From Zootoca vivipara (lineage: Eukaryota), in the NCBI RefSeq assembly GCF_963506605.1, contig NC_083285.1, forward strand, positions 69,626,001 through 69,690,000: a stretch of DNA of 64,000 nt, given 5' to 3'. A program made the position numbers. This document shows positions 1-63,000 of this stretch, piece after piece. The stretch's first letter is position 1. Each line of letters opens with the position of its first letter.

Positions 1-3000
1 ACCATATAAATGCATGGAGTGTGAAAAGAGCTTCAGTTTCAATGAGTCCCTTAGAAGACACCAACGGACTCACACAGGAGAGAAACCATATAAATGTATG
101 GAGTGTGGAAAGAGTTTTAGTGATAATGGAAACCTTAGACAACATCAACGGACTCACACAGGAGAAAAACCATATAAATGTATGGAGTGTGGAAAGAGTT
201 TCAGTCACAGTGGAAATCTTAGAAAACATCAGCAGACACACGGGAAAGAAACCATATAAATGTATGGCATGTGGAAGGAACTTCAGTCAGAGGGGAGCCC
301 TTGATTTAAGTCAAGAAACTAACACAAGAGACAAACCATACAAATGTCAGGAAAGTAGATAGAGGGTCAGTCCTAGTGGAAGTCCTATATCAACAGACTC
401 TTGAGCAGGAAGAACTTTAATAGTTTAACCGTACAAACCCATCAACAACTGAAGAGTAGAAGCAGTTTAAATGGAAAGATTTGCAGAAAGTGCTTTTGTT
501 ATAATGGAGTGTTTAAGAAACATCTTGGGACTCTCACAGGGGAGAACCCATTTAGATATATGGAACTAGTGGAATTCAGCCCGTTTAGTAAACGGGCGCT
601 AGCTGGGCGGGAACAGAGGGGAAGCCCTGGGACGGCGCAGGCGTCGCCTCCACCAGCGGGGATGTGCGTGGAAGACCCCAGGCTCCACCTGGGTGGTTTG
701 CTGTGGCGGCGGGTGGGCGGTTTGTGTGTGTGTGTGTGTGTGTGTGTGTGTGAGAGAGAGAGAGAGAGAGAGAGAGAGAGAGAGAGAGAGAAGTGAGCGG
801 GGCTTTTCTGGGATGTGCCGCCTGCGCGAGCTAAGTGCGCATTGCAGCCAGGCTGGTGGCAAGTTTGCACTCAGGGTCACTGTGGAATAGGGAGGACTGA
901 ATGTATTGGGGGTGGGAAGGGTGGGGGGGTTGTGTGTGTGTGTGCGGTATGTGTGTGGAGAGAGATGTGGTGGTCAAGCCACTCCGGCTCCAGCCTCTTA
1001 TCAAAAGGTTGCTGTGGATCCCGTTTCCCTAAGCAACACCCAATAAAAGCCTCCATAAAAAATAAAAATAAAATAAAAGCACAGCCGAGAGAGGGGCAGA
1101 CGCAGACGGCTTTCTCTCCCCTTCGCCCCAAATGCTTTAATTTCCCCTCAAACGCGGCCTGTCTGGACGGAGGAATCGAGGCTCTCGTTCGCTCGCTCGG
1201 CTTTGTGGGCGTTGTAGTTTCCCTTTCCCTCCTCCCTGCGCGGTATTAGAGACGGCTGTGTCGGGACGGGGGGTGGGTGGGCCGTGGCGGGCCAGGAGCG
1301 TGTCCTGCTCAGCTGTGTGTGTGCGTGTGTGTGTAAGAGAGAGAGAGCGCGAGCGCGCGCGAAGGGAAAAAGCAGCAGCCGTGAGAGGGGAAAGTTGCGG
1401 CTGCGTTTCCCTCCAGTGACTGCCTGAGGTGGTTTGCTGTGGCGACGGGCGGGCGGTTTGTGTGTGTGTGTGTGCGCGAGAGAGAGAGAGAGAGAAGCGC
1501 ACGGGTCTATCCCGCAGCCTCCTCCTTCTCGCACTGCTGCTTAGAAGCGAGTGGTTGGCGACCGCAAACGGTAGGCAGAAGGGTTGGGGGGAGAGAGCGC
1601 GCGCCTGCGTTCCAAGTCTCTGGTCCAATCCCTGTATCCCTGGGGTACATGCGCAGTACCCCAGGGACACACGGGACAACTGGACGCAGGGACAACTTGG
1701 ACATTATTATATAGGATGTGGGACATGTTCCTCTCAGAATCCACTCTTTTCTTCACAGCAATGAACTCAGCAGGAAATCAGTCTTAAAAGCATGATGTGT
1801 ATTTGAAGTTCTTGTGTTTATATGTAAAACTGAACAGTAATGAAATATTGAAGGCAATGTCTCACAATAGGGAGTATAATTTTAGATGTAAGATACCTTT
1901 TGATAGAGAGGGAAAATCTGAATTGCTGGTGGGGAGTGAGGATTAGGGCTGGGCCATATATTAATAGCTCGTCCATACCGGTTTCTAGACCACATCACGA
2001 TAACCTTTGAAAAATAATTGATATGGCAATAAACCACGAATCACAGTGTGTGTTTCTAGGATGTACCTGGAAGCAGCCGGCAGAAAACTTTGCTTCGTGA
2101 AGCCCCTGCACATTCCCAGTTGCTGACTTCCCTCCCAGGTGACAGGAAGAGAAACACACACCTCCATTGCCCTGTGTCGTTCCAGCCTCTTTCCTCCCTT
2201 GCTCCCTTCTGCCGGTTTGTGTGCCGGACTTAGATATACTGTGGGCGTATTTTTTTACTACTGAAACTGGATTTGCTCTCAGGAGCTAAATTTTGTGCCT
2301 CACTGGGGACCCACTGAGAACTGTAGGCTTTGAACCCTCAGTAAACTATAAATGAAGAAGTCCTGCTTCCAGTGTGTGTGTGTGTGTGTGTGTGTGTTGT
2401 TGTTGTTGTTGTTGTTGTTGTTGTTGTTGTTGTTGTTTTGACCTCTGCATGGGAATTGCTCTGCACGTGGCCCCTTCCCCGCTGATACTTAGTTTATGCC
2501 CTGGAGTTGCTGTACTCAAGCATGCAAGATGGGTGTGTGTGTGCGTGCGTGTGACTGGTTTTTCCACCAAACTCTGTCCCCCCTCTCCCCACCACATGAT
2601 CTCCAAACACTGCTTCTTCACTAGAACTTGTCCCTGCCTCCTACGCATTCTGAAGAAAACTTAAAATTCTGTAATTTAATGGGAGATTCCCCGCCCCTAA
2701 GCCTAATTGCAAGAGGGGGAAGGAGGGGCTGCAGGTACCAGGGAAGTCTCCTGGTGGGTCCATCTTCACTCATGTACCCCATGGGGCACCCCAGAGCTAT
2801 TGCTGCTGCTGCTGCTGCTGTCATGGACTGGCAGGGTGGAAGGTGGGGGGAGGCACCAGCTGGAGAACTGACAAGGGAAGAGGGCTTGGATCCCGGGTGT
2901 TGTATGCCCCCAAAGGCTATCCAAACTCTTAGCTCTAGGTCTAGCCAGTGTGGTGTAGTGGTTAAGAGGGGTAGACTAGACTCGTAATCTGGGGAACCGG

Positions 3001-60000: not shown

Positions 60001-63000
60001 GAGCTTCCCTGAGCACCCATTCAGCTGACCCCAAGCGCCAAGCCTTGTCTCTAGTCCTCTGACTGACCCAGACCACAGTCCCTGGAAAAGACGTAGACCT
60101 GGGTCTCACAGAATGGTCCACATGGACCTCCTGAGGCCAATGGGACTGTGCAGGGGATTCATGAAGATCTAGAGGGGGAAACGGGGGTGAATGGAGGATT
60201 ATGATGCAGAGGATGGGAAATGTTCAAAGGAATGATGAAGTGGAGAAAGAGAGGACCTGTTGATGGACAGAGAGCAGCTGCCTTTCCTGTGAGGAAAGAA
60301 TAGATTTGAAAAGGCTGTATTCCAAGATCATGCTGCTTTATTAACGATGATTGATAAACTATGAAAGGTTGCTGATGCATTACTATCATTTGATGACATT
60401 GCATCTTCATTTCCTAAAATCTGGGAACATGGGTGGAAAATGTAGGAGACATCGCAATAAGAGAGGTTGCTAATGGTGCTTGATGTGTTCTTTTTTTCTT
60501 TGTTCCCTTCCTTGAAACCCAAACAGGACTTCTTCTCAGCCCATTCTGAGGAAAGTGATGGAGAAGACAAGTCAGAATTTCGGGGGAGGGAGCAGCTTTC
60601 ATTTCACTAGAAAAAACCATTATAATGTGTGAAATGTGGAATATGCTTCACTGAATGAGCACACATAGCTCACATCTCAAAAAGGGGAGAAACCGTTTAA
60701 AGCTATGGAGAATGGAAAGAGTTTAACTGATAGTGGAACACTTAGAACACATCAGGGGAATCACATGGGGAAGAAAAGATTCCAATGCAAGGAGTCTGGA
60801 AAGAGGGGAAACCTCAATATACATCAGCGGACTCACACAGGAGAGAAACTATATAAATGTTTGGAGTGTGGAAAGCACTTTAGTGATAATGGAAACCTTA
60901 GAAGACACCAACGGGTTCACACAGGGGAGAAACCTTTTAAATGCACGGAGTGTGGAAAGAGCTTCAGTTGGATTGGACAACTCAATATTCATCTACAGAC
61001 TCACACGGGAGAAAAACCATTTAAATGTATGGAGTGCGGAAAAAGCTTCCGTTTCAATGCAAGACTTAAAACACATCAACGGACTCACACAGGAGAGAAA
61101 CCATATAAATGTATGGAGTGTGGAAAGAGCTTCAGTCACAGTAGACAATTCAATAGACATCTACAGTTTCACACAGGGGAGAAACCATTTAAATGCATGG
61201 AGTGTGGAAAGAGCTTCAGTTTAAATGCGTGCCTTCGAAGACACCAACGGACTCACACGGGTGAAAAACCATATAAATGTATGGAGTGTGGAAAGAGTTT
61301 TAATGATGGTGGAAACCTTAGAAAACATCAACGGACTCACACAGGAGAGAAACCATATGAATGTATGGAGTGTGGAAAGAGCTTCTGTCAGAGTGGACAC
61401 CTTAGACAACATCTACAGACTCACACAAGGGAGAAACCATTTAAATGCATGGAGTGCGGAAAGAACTTCAGTAGGAGTAGACAACTCAATATACATCTAC
61501 AGATTCACACAGGGGAGAAACCATTTAAATGCATGGAGTGCAGAAAGAGCTTCAGTTTAAATGAGTCCCTTAGAAGACACCAACGGACTCACACAGGAGA
61601 GAAACCATATAAATGTATGGAGTGCGGAAAGAGCTTCTGTCAGAATGGACACCTTAGAAAACATCTACAGACTCACACAAGGGAGACACCATTTAAATGC
61701 ATGGAGTGCGGAAAGAGCTTCAGTTTAAATGAGTCCCTTAGAAGACACCAACGGACTCACACAGGAGAGAAACCATATAAATGTATGGAGTGTGGAAAGA
61801 GCTTCAGTTTAAATGAGTCCCTTAGAAGACACCAACGGACTCACACGGGTGAAAAACCATATAAATGTATGGAGTGTGGAAAGAATTTTACTGATGATGG
61901 AAACCTTAGAAAACATCAACGGACTCACACAGGAGTGAAACCATATAAATGTATGGAGTGTGGAAAGAGCTTCTGTCAGAGTGGACACCTTAGTAAACAT
62001 CTACAGACTCACACAAGGGAGAAACCATTTAAATGCATGGAGTGCGGAAAGAGCTTCAGTTTAAATGAGTCCCTTAGAAGCCATCAATGGACTCACACAG
62101 GTGAAAAACCATATAAATGTATGGAGTGTGGAGGGAGTTTCAGTCACAGTGGAAATCTTAGAAGACATCAGCAGACACACAGGGAAGAAACCATATAAAT
62201 GTATGGCATGTGGAAGGAACTTCAGTCAGAGTGGGACCCTTTATTTACATCTACAAACTTATACAAGAGACAACCATATAAATGTAAGGAAAGTATATAG
62301 AGGGTCAGTCCTAGTGGAAGTCCTATATCAACAGACTCATGAGCAGGAAGAACTTTAATAGTTTAACCATACAAACCCATCAACAACTCAAGAGGAGAAG
62401 CAGTTTAAATGGAAAGATTTGCAGAAAGTGCTTTTGTTATAATGGAGTGTTTAAGAAACATCTTGGGACTCTCACAGGGGAGAACCCATTTAGATGTATG
62501 GAATGTGGGACGTGTTCCTCTCAGAGTCCCCTCTTTTCTTCACAGCTATGAACTCAGCAGGAAATCAGTCTTCAAAGCATGATGTGTATGTGAAGGTCTT
62601 GTGTTTATATGTAAAACTGAACAGTAATGAAATATTGAAGGCAATGTCTCACAATACTGAGTATAATTTTAGATGTAAGATACCTTTTGATAGAGAGGGA
62701 AAATCTGAATTGGTGGTGGGGAGTGAGGATTAGGGCTGGGCGATATATTAATAGCTCGTCCATACCGGTTTCTAGACCACATCACGATAACCTTTGAAAA
62801 ACAATTGATATGGCAATAAACCACATCACGATAAGTGAGGCCCCTGCAGATGCCGAGTTGCTGACTTCCCTCCCAGACGACAGGAAGCGAAACACACACC
62901 TCCTTTGCCCTGTGTCGTTCCAGCCTCTTTGCTCCCTTGCTCCCTTCTGCCGGTTTGTGTGCCTGACTTAGATATACTGTGGGTGTATTTTTTTACTGCT

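What the first reader, a model, noticed from the sequence alone, without database searches (positions are those of the whole stretch)
1..62198. Array of effector-less poly-zinc-finger genes built by shuffling a small finger toolkit
Seen: eight genes share near-identical spacers, yet finger number (13-21) and order differ. The same helices recur in new combinations ([32 protein letters not shown](Q/H)L, SRSRQLN, SHSG(N/H/Q)). Blocks are duplicated within genes: A fingers 3-5 recur at 9-11, and a triplet is repeated in 12954-14213. The 84-bp backbone is homogenised while variation concentrates in the helix. Known: PRDM9 arrays evolve like minisatellites, and KRAB-ZNF clusters diversify against transposons. 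Inference: recombination at two levels (84-bp and 8-kb units) generates new DNA-binding specificities in KRAB-less proteins, possibly as a TE-recognition system or competitors of KRAB-ZFPs.
Basis: partly seen in the sequence, partly recalled or inferred. Interest (0 to 1): 0.75.

Follow-up and report, generated by a model that had tools for sequence, protein, structure and literature searches.

The report
Young tandem zinc-finger-only gene cluster
This stretch of a lizard-like genome holds a recently amplified row of genes that encode nothing but DNA-binding zinc fingers and that keep swapping, gaining and losing fingers, which is the ordinary way this very large gene family evolves.

Summary
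The window holds seven complete zinc-finger ORFs and one partial one. All lie on the + strand in tandem units of 7.96-8.62 kb. They carry 13-21 intact C2H2 fingers, and the spacers are 87-100% identical.

No KRAB, SCAN or BTB sequence was found in the ORFs or elsewhere in the 64 kb. The stretch just upstream of each ATG is decayed fingers, closed by stops in all frames in all seven copies.

Finger order is not freely shuffled. Gene types share colinear cores and differ by in-register finger duplications and deletions. One gene (B) is a clear mosaic: its flanks are 99% like F, but its interior fingers are 98-100% like A.

Amino-acid change concentrates at helix positions -1, 2, 3 and 6. The backbone shows moderate constraint in older comparisons (ratio about 0.4) and none detectable in the youngest copies.

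All of this matches known poly-zinc-finger cluster evolution, and "ZNF-only" models are already the largest class counted in a lizard genome. A role in recognising transposable elements is untested.

An uninterrupted Ty3/gypsy element with identical LTRs sits in one spacer.

Verdict: a new member of a known kind, of modest interest.

The parts
1..259 (+). Array Z: the 3' end of a C/D-type zinc-finger ORF cut by the window start (3 intact fingers plus stop)
   Evidence: It is 252/252 identical to D and differs from C at 1 base.
4793..6487 (+). Gene A, 564 aa. It has 19 finger units, of which 15 are intact. Unit 7 has lost a Cys and a His, and the last unit has a shifted tail.
12954..14213 (+). 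Gene B, 419 aa, with 13 intact fingers. It is cut by a premature TGA in unit 16, and decayed fingers continue to about 14444. It is a mosaic of an A-type interior within an F-type frame.
21576..23501 (+). Gene C, 641 aa, 21 intact fingers. It contains an internal triplet duplication (units 5-7 and 11-13) and a 132-bp exact internal repeat.
36003..37928 (+). Gene D, 641 aa, 21 intact fingers. It differs from C at 4 of 1926 bases.
44561..46255 (+). Gene E, 564 aa, 14 intact fingers. It differs from A at 4 of 1695 bases. Units 3 and 7 are broken.
52746..53987 (+). Gene F, 413 aa, 13 intact fingers.
60705..62198 (+). Gene G, 497 aa, 16 intact fingers. It is F-type with whole-finger insertions and deletions relative to F.
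12776..12953 (+). Leader of gene B, taken as the example. A polypyrimidine tract and an acceptor-like AG are followed by about 180 nt of decayed fingers, with stops in all three frames and three upstream ATGs. The same arrangement is seen in all 7 units (A from 4665, C from 21392).
   Evidence: Alignment A1, with 257 of 298 columns invariant. Three-frame translations. Finger-like tblastn matches containing stops, best E 0.001.
8600..9600 (.). GC-rich, weakly CpG-island-like segment of the spacer (GC 0.63-0.66, CpG o/e 0.46-0.58), 3.4-4.3 kb upstream of the next ORF. Homologues lie in the other spacers except Z-A. It is a possible promoter; this is inferred only.
25129..30941 (-). Virus-like stretch: a Ty3/gypsy (chromodomain-bearing) LTR retrotransposon inserted 1.6 kb downstream of gene C. 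The LTRs are at 25129-25556 and 30514-30941, the gag ORF at 29245-30495 and the pol ORF at 25253-29287. No breaks were counted. Described only.
16882..17811 (-). Reverse-transcriptase fragment (only the C-terminal half of RVT_1 matched). It lies in a stretch present only in the B-C spacer.
   Evidence: E 7.1e-19.

Best explanation
This is a very young, lineage-specific tandem cluster of C2H2 poly-zinc-finger ORFs with no KRAB, SCAN or BTB part ('ZNF-only'). The genome's closest database relatives are squamate reptiles.

Shown:
- An approximately 8.3-kb unit, made of one finger array plus a spacer, has been copied in tandem. Both single units and a multi-unit block were copied: Z-A-B matches D-E-F, and the B-C spacer plus C matches the C-D spacer plus D.
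- There are three array types (A/E, C/D/Z and F/G) plus one mosaic (B).
- Arrays change by gain and loss of whole 84-bp fingers in register, and by transfer of finger tracts between arrays. B took an A-type interior after it separated from F.
- Amino-acid change falls mainly on helix positions -1, 2, 3 and 6.
- The ORF is an island of intact fingers inside a longer decayed array. Stops shared by all copies close every frame upstream of the ATG.

Inferred:
- The unit descends from the terminal finger exon of an older poly-ZF gene that lost its connection to any upstream coding exon.
- The finger-only ORF was kept under moderate purifying selection for a time. If expressed, the products are sequence-specific DNA-binding proteins with no repressor domain of their own.
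- Unequal crossing-over and gene conversion between near-identical units are the engine of change.
- The youngest copies, and B, may already be drifting towards pseudogenes.
- Targets, whether transposable elements or others, are unknown.
For: Layout and identities.

Fingers shared between gene types: with one representative per type (A, C, G), 34 of 57 fingers have their nearest relative in another type, 20 in their own gene, and 3 tie. Cluster strings show colinear cores.

B as a mosaic:
- Its upstream spacer differs from F's at 23 of 5556 bases.
- Units B3-B15 are 98-100% identical to A units, with exact runs of 109, 166, 234, 98 and 113 bp.
- For comparison, A-C share a single exact run of at least 90 bp, and A-G and C-G share none.

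Contact-site enrichment: 68 nonsynonymous and 7 synonymous changes at contact codons, against 141 and 91 elsewhere, on 79 minimum-spanning-tree edges. Fisher OR 6.3, p 3.7e-7.

Constraint:
- A versus C positional orthologues give 25 nonsynonymous and 13 synonymous backbone changes, ratio 0.41, binomial p 0.011.
- ORFs are less diverged than their flanks: A/E 4/1695 against 25/2095 (p 5.5e-4), and C/D 4/1926 against 33/5477 (p 0.037).
- A/E and C/D show no indel in 3621 bp of array, against 28 gap openings in 7572 bp of flanks.

No effector domain.

Shared upstream stops.
Against: - No expression data could be consulted.
- The youngest comparisons show no constraint. Counts of nonsynonymous to synonymous changes are A/E 4:0, C/D 2:2 and F/G 13:0, together 19:2, which is indistinguishable from neutral (p 0.24).
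- Several fingers have lost zinc ligands, and B has a premature stop.
- Three upstream ATGs precede the shared start codon, and non-3n indels lie between them. This argues against efficient translation.
- No near-identical or N-terminally matching protein is in the protein collection.
- Part of the backbone constraint measured between non-positional fingers may predate the loss of the upstream exon connection.
- With only 49 differences in the A-C test, the absence of new stops is weak evidence (2.7 expected, P(0) = 0.065).
Confidence: 0.65

Rival explanations
1. The units are non-functional. On this reading, a decapitated finger exon (a pseudogene) was amplified as a macrosatellite-like segmental repeat. 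The frames are open only because the copies are young.
For: - Stops in all frames upstream, upstream ATGs and non-3n indels in the leader.
- Recent changes run 19 nonsynonymous to 2 synonymous.
- Zinc ligands are broken in A and E, and B has a premature stop.
- The Z-A spacer lacks the GC-rich segment.
- No matching annotated protein exists.
Against: - The A-C backbone ratio is 0.41, p 0.011, although both types already share the upstream stops.
- ORFs are 3-5 times less diverged than their flanks.
- The A/E and C/D arrays have no frame-breaking indels, while their flanks have 28 gap openings.
- The start codon is kept in 7 of 7 copies.
Confidence: 0.25
2. The arrays are terminal or alternative 3' exons of one or more larger SCAN/KRAB zinc-finger genes. 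Their effector exons would lie outside the window, so the proteins would not be effector-less.
For: - Many of the closest squamate homologues carry SCAN and/or KRAB.
- An acceptor-like site is conserved about 180 nt upstream of each ATG.
- The first array is cut by the window edge.
Against: - All three frames are closed between that site and the ATG in 7 of 7 copies.
- No SCAN/KRAB-like sequence was found in 64 kb using 120 homologues.
- Seven same-strand arrays about 8 kb apart would each need to skip the others.
Confidence: 0.05
3. Part of the structure is an assembly artefact. For example, the Z-A-B and D-E-F blocks could be two haplotypes laid in tandem, which would make B and F alleles of one gene.
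For: - The blocks are 97-99.8% identical, and some 400-bp windows are 100% identical.
- B and F share near-identical flanks but have different arrays, as array alleles might.
Against: - The window has no gaps.
- Copies carry private insertions: the retroelement, which has a target-site duplication and three empty paralogous sites, and the RT fragment.
- The Z-A spacer has a private 2.1-kb deletion relative to the D-E spacer.
- Divergence is graded from 0.2% to 6%.
Confidence: 0.05

Closest known systems
Lineage-specific tandem clusters of poly-zinc-finger genes (Emerson and Thomas 2009, PMC2604467; abstract and passages read)
   Same: Both show tandem duplication of whole genes and recent paralogues. 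In both, the evidence for selection falls on helix positions -1, 3 and 6, and short gene-conversion tracts occur among paralogues.
   Different: Here the copies are much younger (0.2-6% divergence) and more regular (unit of about 8.3 kb). No effector domain is present. An excess over neutrality at contact sites is not demonstrated.
'ZNF-only' polydactyl gene models of lizard (Liu et al. 2014, PMC3971581, Table 1: 723 ZNF-only models in Anolis carolinensis, against 122 KRAB, 89 SCAN and 240 SCAN-KRAB; passages read)
   Same: These are finger arrays with no assignable KRAB, SCAN or BTB exon in a squamate-like genome. [quoted passage not shown]
   Different: Whether this particular family is in their catalogue could not be checked, because the supplementary tables are closed. 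The window's species is not identified, and its proteins are not in the protein collection.
PRDM9 zinc-finger array as a coding minisatellite (PMC3890296; search listing and start of abstract only)
   Same: Both show in-register gain, loss and exchange of 84-bp finger units, with change at DNA-contact positions.
   Different: There is no PR/SET or KRAB-related part. Adjacent fingers match at only 76-78%. This is a multi-gene tandem cluster rather than one hypervariable locus.
FiNZ zinc-finger genes of cyprinid fish (Wells et al. 2023, PMC10547256; abstract read)
   Same: Both are a large non-KRAB zinc-finger expansion, recently duplicated. FiNZ genes are proposed, and for zebrafish tested, to repress transposable elements.
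   Different: FiNZ genes have a conserved N-terminal domain. These ORFs have none. No expression or repression data exist here.

Membership tests
Tandem C2H2 (Krueppel-type) poly-zinc-finger proteins | Three or more tandem C-X2-C-X12-H-X3-H units joined by TGEKP-type linkers | tested here: met
   There are 13-21 intact units per ORF. Pfam zf-C2H2 and zf-H2C2_2 match in 7 of 7 ORFs, with E from 1e-82 to 1e-210.
KRAB zinc-finger proteins | KRAB domain (PF01352) encoded upstream of the array | tested here: not met
   It is absent from 7 of 7 ORFs. tblastn with 120 homologues gave no hit outside the arrays apart from the retroelement and decayed fingers. Their 116 N-terminal parts gave a best E of 0.023. 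The leader regions gave only finger-like matches. Sequence beyond the window was not examined.
KRAB zinc-finger proteins | Recruitment of the KAP1/TRIM28 corepressor | not testable with these tools
   This is a biochemical property.
SCAN and SCAN-KRAB zinc-finger proteins of squamates | SCAN domain (PF02023) | tested here: not met
   Same searches as for KRAB. The retroelement's gag ORF also gave no SCAN match at E up to 0.001.
'ZNF-only' poly-ZF gene class (Liu et al. 2014) | Finger-array ORF with no BTB, KRAB or SCAN exon assignable to it | tested here: met
   within the 64-kb window only.
'ZNF-only' poly-ZF gene class (Liu et al. 2014) | Support as an expressed gene (transcript or annotated model) | not testable with these tools
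   No transcript data or eukaryotic genome annotation was available. No near-identical protein is in the collection.
PRDM9-type coding minisatellite | PR/SET domain upstream of the array | tested here: not met
   Pfam lists only zinc-finger-type families.
PRDM9-type coding minisatellite | Near-identical neighbouring 84-bp repeats | tested here: not met
   TRF gives 76-78% matches at period 84. Only some blocks are 98-100% identical.
Ty3/gypsy (Metaviridae-type) LTR retrotransposon with chromodomain (the virus-like stretch) | Two LTRs with TG..CA ends, flanked by a short target-site duplication | tested here: met
   The LTRs are 428 bp and 100% identical. There is a 5-bp duplication, and three paralogous empty sites exist.
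Ty3/gypsy (Metaviridae-type) LTR retrotransposon with chromodomain (the virus-like stretch) | gag, then pol in the order protease, reverse transcriptase, RNase H, integrase, with a C-terminal chromodomain | tested here: met
   Pfam on the two ORFs as they stand gives Retrotrans_gag and Ty3_capsid, then RVP_2, RVT_1, RT_RNaseH, Integrase_H2C2, rve, SH3_Tf2-1 and Chromo (27.2 bits against a cut-off of 25.1). The nearest relatives are Podarcis muralis gypsy-type proteins at 57-69% identity.

The most novel reading that the evidence does not exclude
The cluster could work as a cassette system. A finger exon that lost its effector became an autonomous ZNF-only gene family. Its near-identical tandem copies then serve as donors for one another, as A did for B. 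Inter-array gene conversion plus in-register finger turnover would keep generating new DNA-binding specificities. Selection would act on helix contacts, possibly in response to young retroelements such as the uninterrupted gypsy copy lodged in the cluster.
Probability: 0.1. Interest if true: 0.6.

Novelty: new member of a known kind. Interest (0 to 1): 0.3.

Why it matters
The window is a clean, gap-free snapshot of a zinc-finger cluster caught very early in its growth. It shows the unit of duplication, a multi-unit block copy and whole-finger gains and losses. It also shows one dated transfer of fingers between neighbouring genes, all at 0.2-6% divergence.

That makes it a useful worked example of how poly-zinc-finger families diversify. 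It is also a candidate locus for asking whether finger-only proteins are used or are merely by-products. It does not change what is known about the family.

Tried and rejected
- Whole-frame translation of a spacer for Pfam failed because of stop codons. I then scanned ten long stop-free ORFs of the spacers. Nine had no family, and one was a reverse-transcriptase fragment.
- I searched the degenerate N-terminal 56 residues for orthologues. There were 8 candidates and none was significant.
- The same 56 residues against all cluster representatives were swamped by generic zinc-finger proteins, with identity of at most 52% in the best 150. This was uninformative.
- tRNA and Rfam scans found nothing.
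- The promoter/terminator scan uses bacterial consensus sequences and has no bearing on a vertebrate-like locus.
- One script stopped with an index error while measuring distal spacer identity. The 400-bp painting covers that question.
- I considered PRDM9-like and SCAN/KRAB membership and rejected both on domain content.
- I considered free 'shuffling' of fingers and rejected it in favour of colinear cores with local duplication, deletion and conversion.
- I first took the 88% A-B identity as the neutral background for the conversion argument. I rejected it because that figure includes misaligned arrays. The true flank divergence is 2-4%. The argument now rests on the contrast with F and G.

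
Full report
LAYOUT. The window has no N and no soft-masking. It is a head-to-tail series of units, each with one zinc-finger array on the + strand. There are seven complete ORFs: A 4793-6487, B 12954-14213, C 21576-23501, D 36003-37928, E 44561-46255, F 52746-53987 and G 60705-62198. 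An eighth array (Z, 1-259) is cut by the window start. Distances between the shared start codons are 8104, 8622, 14427, 8615, 8128 and 7959 bp (coordinates). The long one contains a 5.8-kb retroelement. TRF reports an 84-bp period in all eight arrays and higher periods of 252 or 336 bp.

OBSERVATION.
- Intact fingers number A 15, B 13, C 21, D 21, E 14, F 13 and G 16.
- Spacers painted in 400-bp windows find their nearest paralogue at mostly 96-100% identity.
- The quoted helices all recur.
- The 'fingers 3-5 equal 9-11' block is in the 641-aa genes C and D, where units 5-7 match 11-13 at 98, 99 and 94%.
- The repeated triplet in B is units 10-12 and 13-15 (99, 100, 98%), with a 152-bp exact run.
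- Helix codons are far more variable than the backbone: mean pairwise identity is 0.640 against 0.858 among 74 distinct units.
- Backbone third positions are only 0.768 identical against 0.904 for first and second positions. The backbone is therefore held mainly by selection on the protein, not simply homogenised.

FINGERS. I read every array in 84-bp register, which gave 137 units. I dropped 9 of them: six were out of register at the 5' end of B, F and G, and three were frameshifted. The remaining 128 units give 80 distinct 84-mers, 50 distinct helix 8-mers and 23 single-linkage clusters at 94% nt identity or more. Written as cluster strings, the genes are:
- A/E: JKAPNEGDFQBOFALCBA
- C/D: JKARGDMAAEGDMSTUFALCBAI
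- B: AANEBOFACBACBH
- F: VEDAHCBWBAHBI
- G: VEDCBAHCBHBBAHBI

The types share colinear cores (JKA..E.D..FALCBA(I)) and differ by local block duplication, deletion or replacement. This is in-register turnover, not free shuffling. With one representative per type (A, C, G), 34 of 57 fingers have their nearest relative in another type, 20 in their own gene, and 3 tie. Fingers therefore do not cluster by gene.

UNIT-LEVEL HISTORY. Substitution-only divergence of flanks is as follows:
- A/E: 25 of 2095 bases.
- C/D: 33 of 5477.
- Z/C downstream: 7 of 1637.
- B/F upstream spacer: 23 of 5556.
- F/G upstream spacer: 93 of 3419.

The spacers pair as Z-A with D-E, A-B with E-F, and B-C with C-D. So a Z-A-B block was copied as D-E-F, and a spacer-plus-C unit was copied once more.

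B is the informative case.
- Its upstream spacer and first two degenerate units are F-type. Its units 16-17 are F/G-type. Its downstream flank is 99.6% C-type over 836 bp.
- Its units 3-15 are 98-100% identical to A units, with exact runs of 109, 166, 234, 98 and 113 bp.
- Between types, A and C otherwise share a single exact run of 90 bp or more, and A-G and C-G share none.
- G is an older relative, with flanks about 2-3% from B and F, and it has the F-type array. The F-type array is therefore ancestral for B, and B's interior was replaced from an A-type array after B and F separated. This last step is inference.
- C also holds a 132-bp exact internal repeat.

SELECTION.
- On the 79 edges of a minimum spanning tree of the 80 distinct units, contact codons (-1, 2, 3, 6) carry 68 nonsynonymous and 7 synonymous codon changes, against 141 and 91 elsewhere. 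Fisher OR 6.3, p 3.7e-7.
- For 26 reciprocal-best finger pairs between types, contact pN is 0.102. The ratio is 4.1 to those codons' own pS of 0.025, which rests on 1.5 synonymous changes, and 1.1 to the all-codon pS of 0.093. The rest of the finger has pN/pS 0.39.
- For positional orthologues in colinear blocks, A against C (12 fingers, 49 of 1008 bases different) gives a backbone of 25 nonsynonymous to 13 synonymous changes. The ratio is 0.41 and the binomial p is 0.011. Both types already share the upstream stops, so this constraint acted on the finger-only ORF.
- The youngest comparisons show no constraint. A/E has 4 nonsynonymous and 0 synonymous changes, C/D has 2 and 2, and F/G has 13 and 0. 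Together that is 19 to 2, with p 0.24 against a neutral 82%.
- ORFs are nevertheless less diverged than their flanks: A/E p 5.5e-4 and C/D p 0.037. The A/E and C/D arrays have no indel in 3621 bp, against 28 gap openings in 7572 bp of flank.
- About 5.6% of single-base changes in intact fingers would create a stop. For A-C that gives 2.7 expected stops and none seen, P(0) = 0.065.
- Damage that is present: a premature TGA and a later frameshift in B; a lost Cys in unit 7 of A and E; a lost His in unit 7 of A and in unit 3 of E; and a shifted tail in the last finger of A and E.

EFFECTOR-LESS?
- Pfam finds only zinc-finger-type families in 7 of 7 ORFs.
- The 120 best homologues, many of them squamate proteins listing SCAN (PF02023) and/or KRAB (PF01352), were run as tblastn queries against the window. 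Of 17,640 matches, 6 lay outside the arrays. Two were in the retroelement and four in decayed fingers next to Z.
- The N-terminal parts of 116 of the 120 homologues gave 570 of 8,248 matches outside the arrays and the element, with a best E of 0.023.
- The 420 bases upstream of each of the 7 start codons gave only finger-like alignments containing stops, with a best E of 0.001.
- The alignment of this region has 257 of 298 columns invariant. It shows, in all seven copies, a polypyrimidine tract with an acceptor-like AG about 180 nt upstream of the ATG, stops in all three frames between the two, three upstream ATGs, and non-3n indels (7 bp in B/F/G and 1 bp in C/D).
- Decayed fingers also continue after each stop codon.
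- The ORF is thus an island of intact fingers in a longer decayed array. It cannot be joined in frame to an upstream exon through that site.
- I built no spliced model.
- Each spacer except Z-A has a GC-rich, weakly CpG-island-like segment 3.4-4.3 kb upstream of the ORF. That it is a promoter is only a guess.

VIRUS-LIKE STRETCH (description only).
- Positions 25129-30941 on the minus strand hold a Ty3/gypsy-type LTR retrotransposon. Its 428-bp LTRs are 100% identical, its ends are TG..CA, and it has a 5-bp target-site duplication. The same site is empty in three paralogous spacers.
- The gag ORF (29245-30495, 416 aa) and pol ORF (25253-29287, 1344 aa) are both uninterrupted as they stand. I counted 0 stops, 0 frameshifts and 0 insertions within them.
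- Pfam gives Retrotrans_gag and Ty3_capsid, then protease, reverse transcriptase, RNase H, integrase and a chromodomain.
- The nearest proteins are gypsy-type entries of Podarcis muralis at 57-69% identity.
- A reverse-transcriptase fragment lies at 16882-17811 (minus strand), in a stretch private to the B-C spacer.

SOURCE. The closest zinc-finger proteins are squamate (Zootoca at 72% identity, then Podarcis, geckos and snakes), and so are the closest retroelement proteins. I do not take the window for human. No near-identical protein was listed, and none shares the N-terminal 56 residues.

COMPARISON AND NOVELTY.
- Tandem duplication, selection at helix contacts and short conversion tracts are established for poly-ZF expansions (PMC2604467; abstract and passages).
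- Non-KRAB zinc-finger families have been linked to transposable elements (PMC10547256; abstract).
- PRDM9 arrays as coding minisatellites are known (PMC3890296; listing and start of abstract only).
- This locus is therefore a new member of a known kind. Its youth, its regular unit and the datable A-to-B transfer are nice features but not surprising ones.

UNCHECKED.
- Expression, sequence beyond the window, orthologous loci and read support were not checked.
- Supplementary tables of PMC3971581, which list the lizard models, were closed. They may bear on whether this family was already catalogued.
- No claim is made that the family is absent from print. My four literature searches were not aimed at settling that.

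Noticed in passing
window 25129-30941 (-): A Ty3/gypsy-type retroelement with 100% identical 428-bp LTRs, a 5-bp target-site duplication and both ORFs uninterrupted. It is inserted antisense 1.6 kb downstream of gene C. The same site is empty in three paralogous spacers (about 1896, 15596 and 39580), so the insertion is younger than those duplications.
   Followed up: yes
window 16882-17811 (-): A 310-aa ORF that matches only the C-terminal half of the reverse-transcriptase model RVT_1 (E 7.1e-19). It sits in a roughly 950-bp stretch found only in the B-C spacer. It is probably a 5'-truncated non-LTR element; the class was not determined.
   Followed up: partly
window 566-1709; also about 23808-24951 and 38235-39393; part at 14761-15409: A 1144-bp GC-rich insertion (GC 0.59, CpG o/e 0.78), the strongest CpG-island-like stretch in the window. 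It lies inside a decayed finger downstream of the Z, C and D arrays and is partly present after B. It is absent after A, E, F and G. Its 180-aa ORF has no Pfam match. Its identity is unknown.
   Followed up: partly
window 3632-3640 versus 41305-43412: The Z-A spacer lacks about 2.1 kb that its near-identical partner D-E has. The missing piece includes the GC-rich segment that the other spacers carry upstream of their ORFs. Gene A may therefore lack whatever that segment provides.
   Followed up: partly
window 63195-64000: The end of the window has no counterpart in the other spacers. A 139-aa basic ORF at 63567-63986 (+) has no Pfam match. From memory it resembles ORFs seen in non-LTR elements, but no tool result supports that.
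   Followed up: partly
the 1 kb upstream of each start codon, e.g. 11954-12953: The stretch from -1000 to -301 is 97-99% identical among A, B, E, F and G. That is more than the distal spacers and more than synonymous sites of the arrays. D is 92-93% identical to them there. It may be co-converted with the arrays or under constraint.
   Followed up: partly
window 752-791, 2395-2437, 16053-16098, 16222-16267, 38425-38472: Perfect microsatellites, (GA)20, (TGT)14, (GT)23, (TG)23 and (GA)24, lie in the spacers. They account for many of the gaps between paralogous flanks.
   Followed up: no
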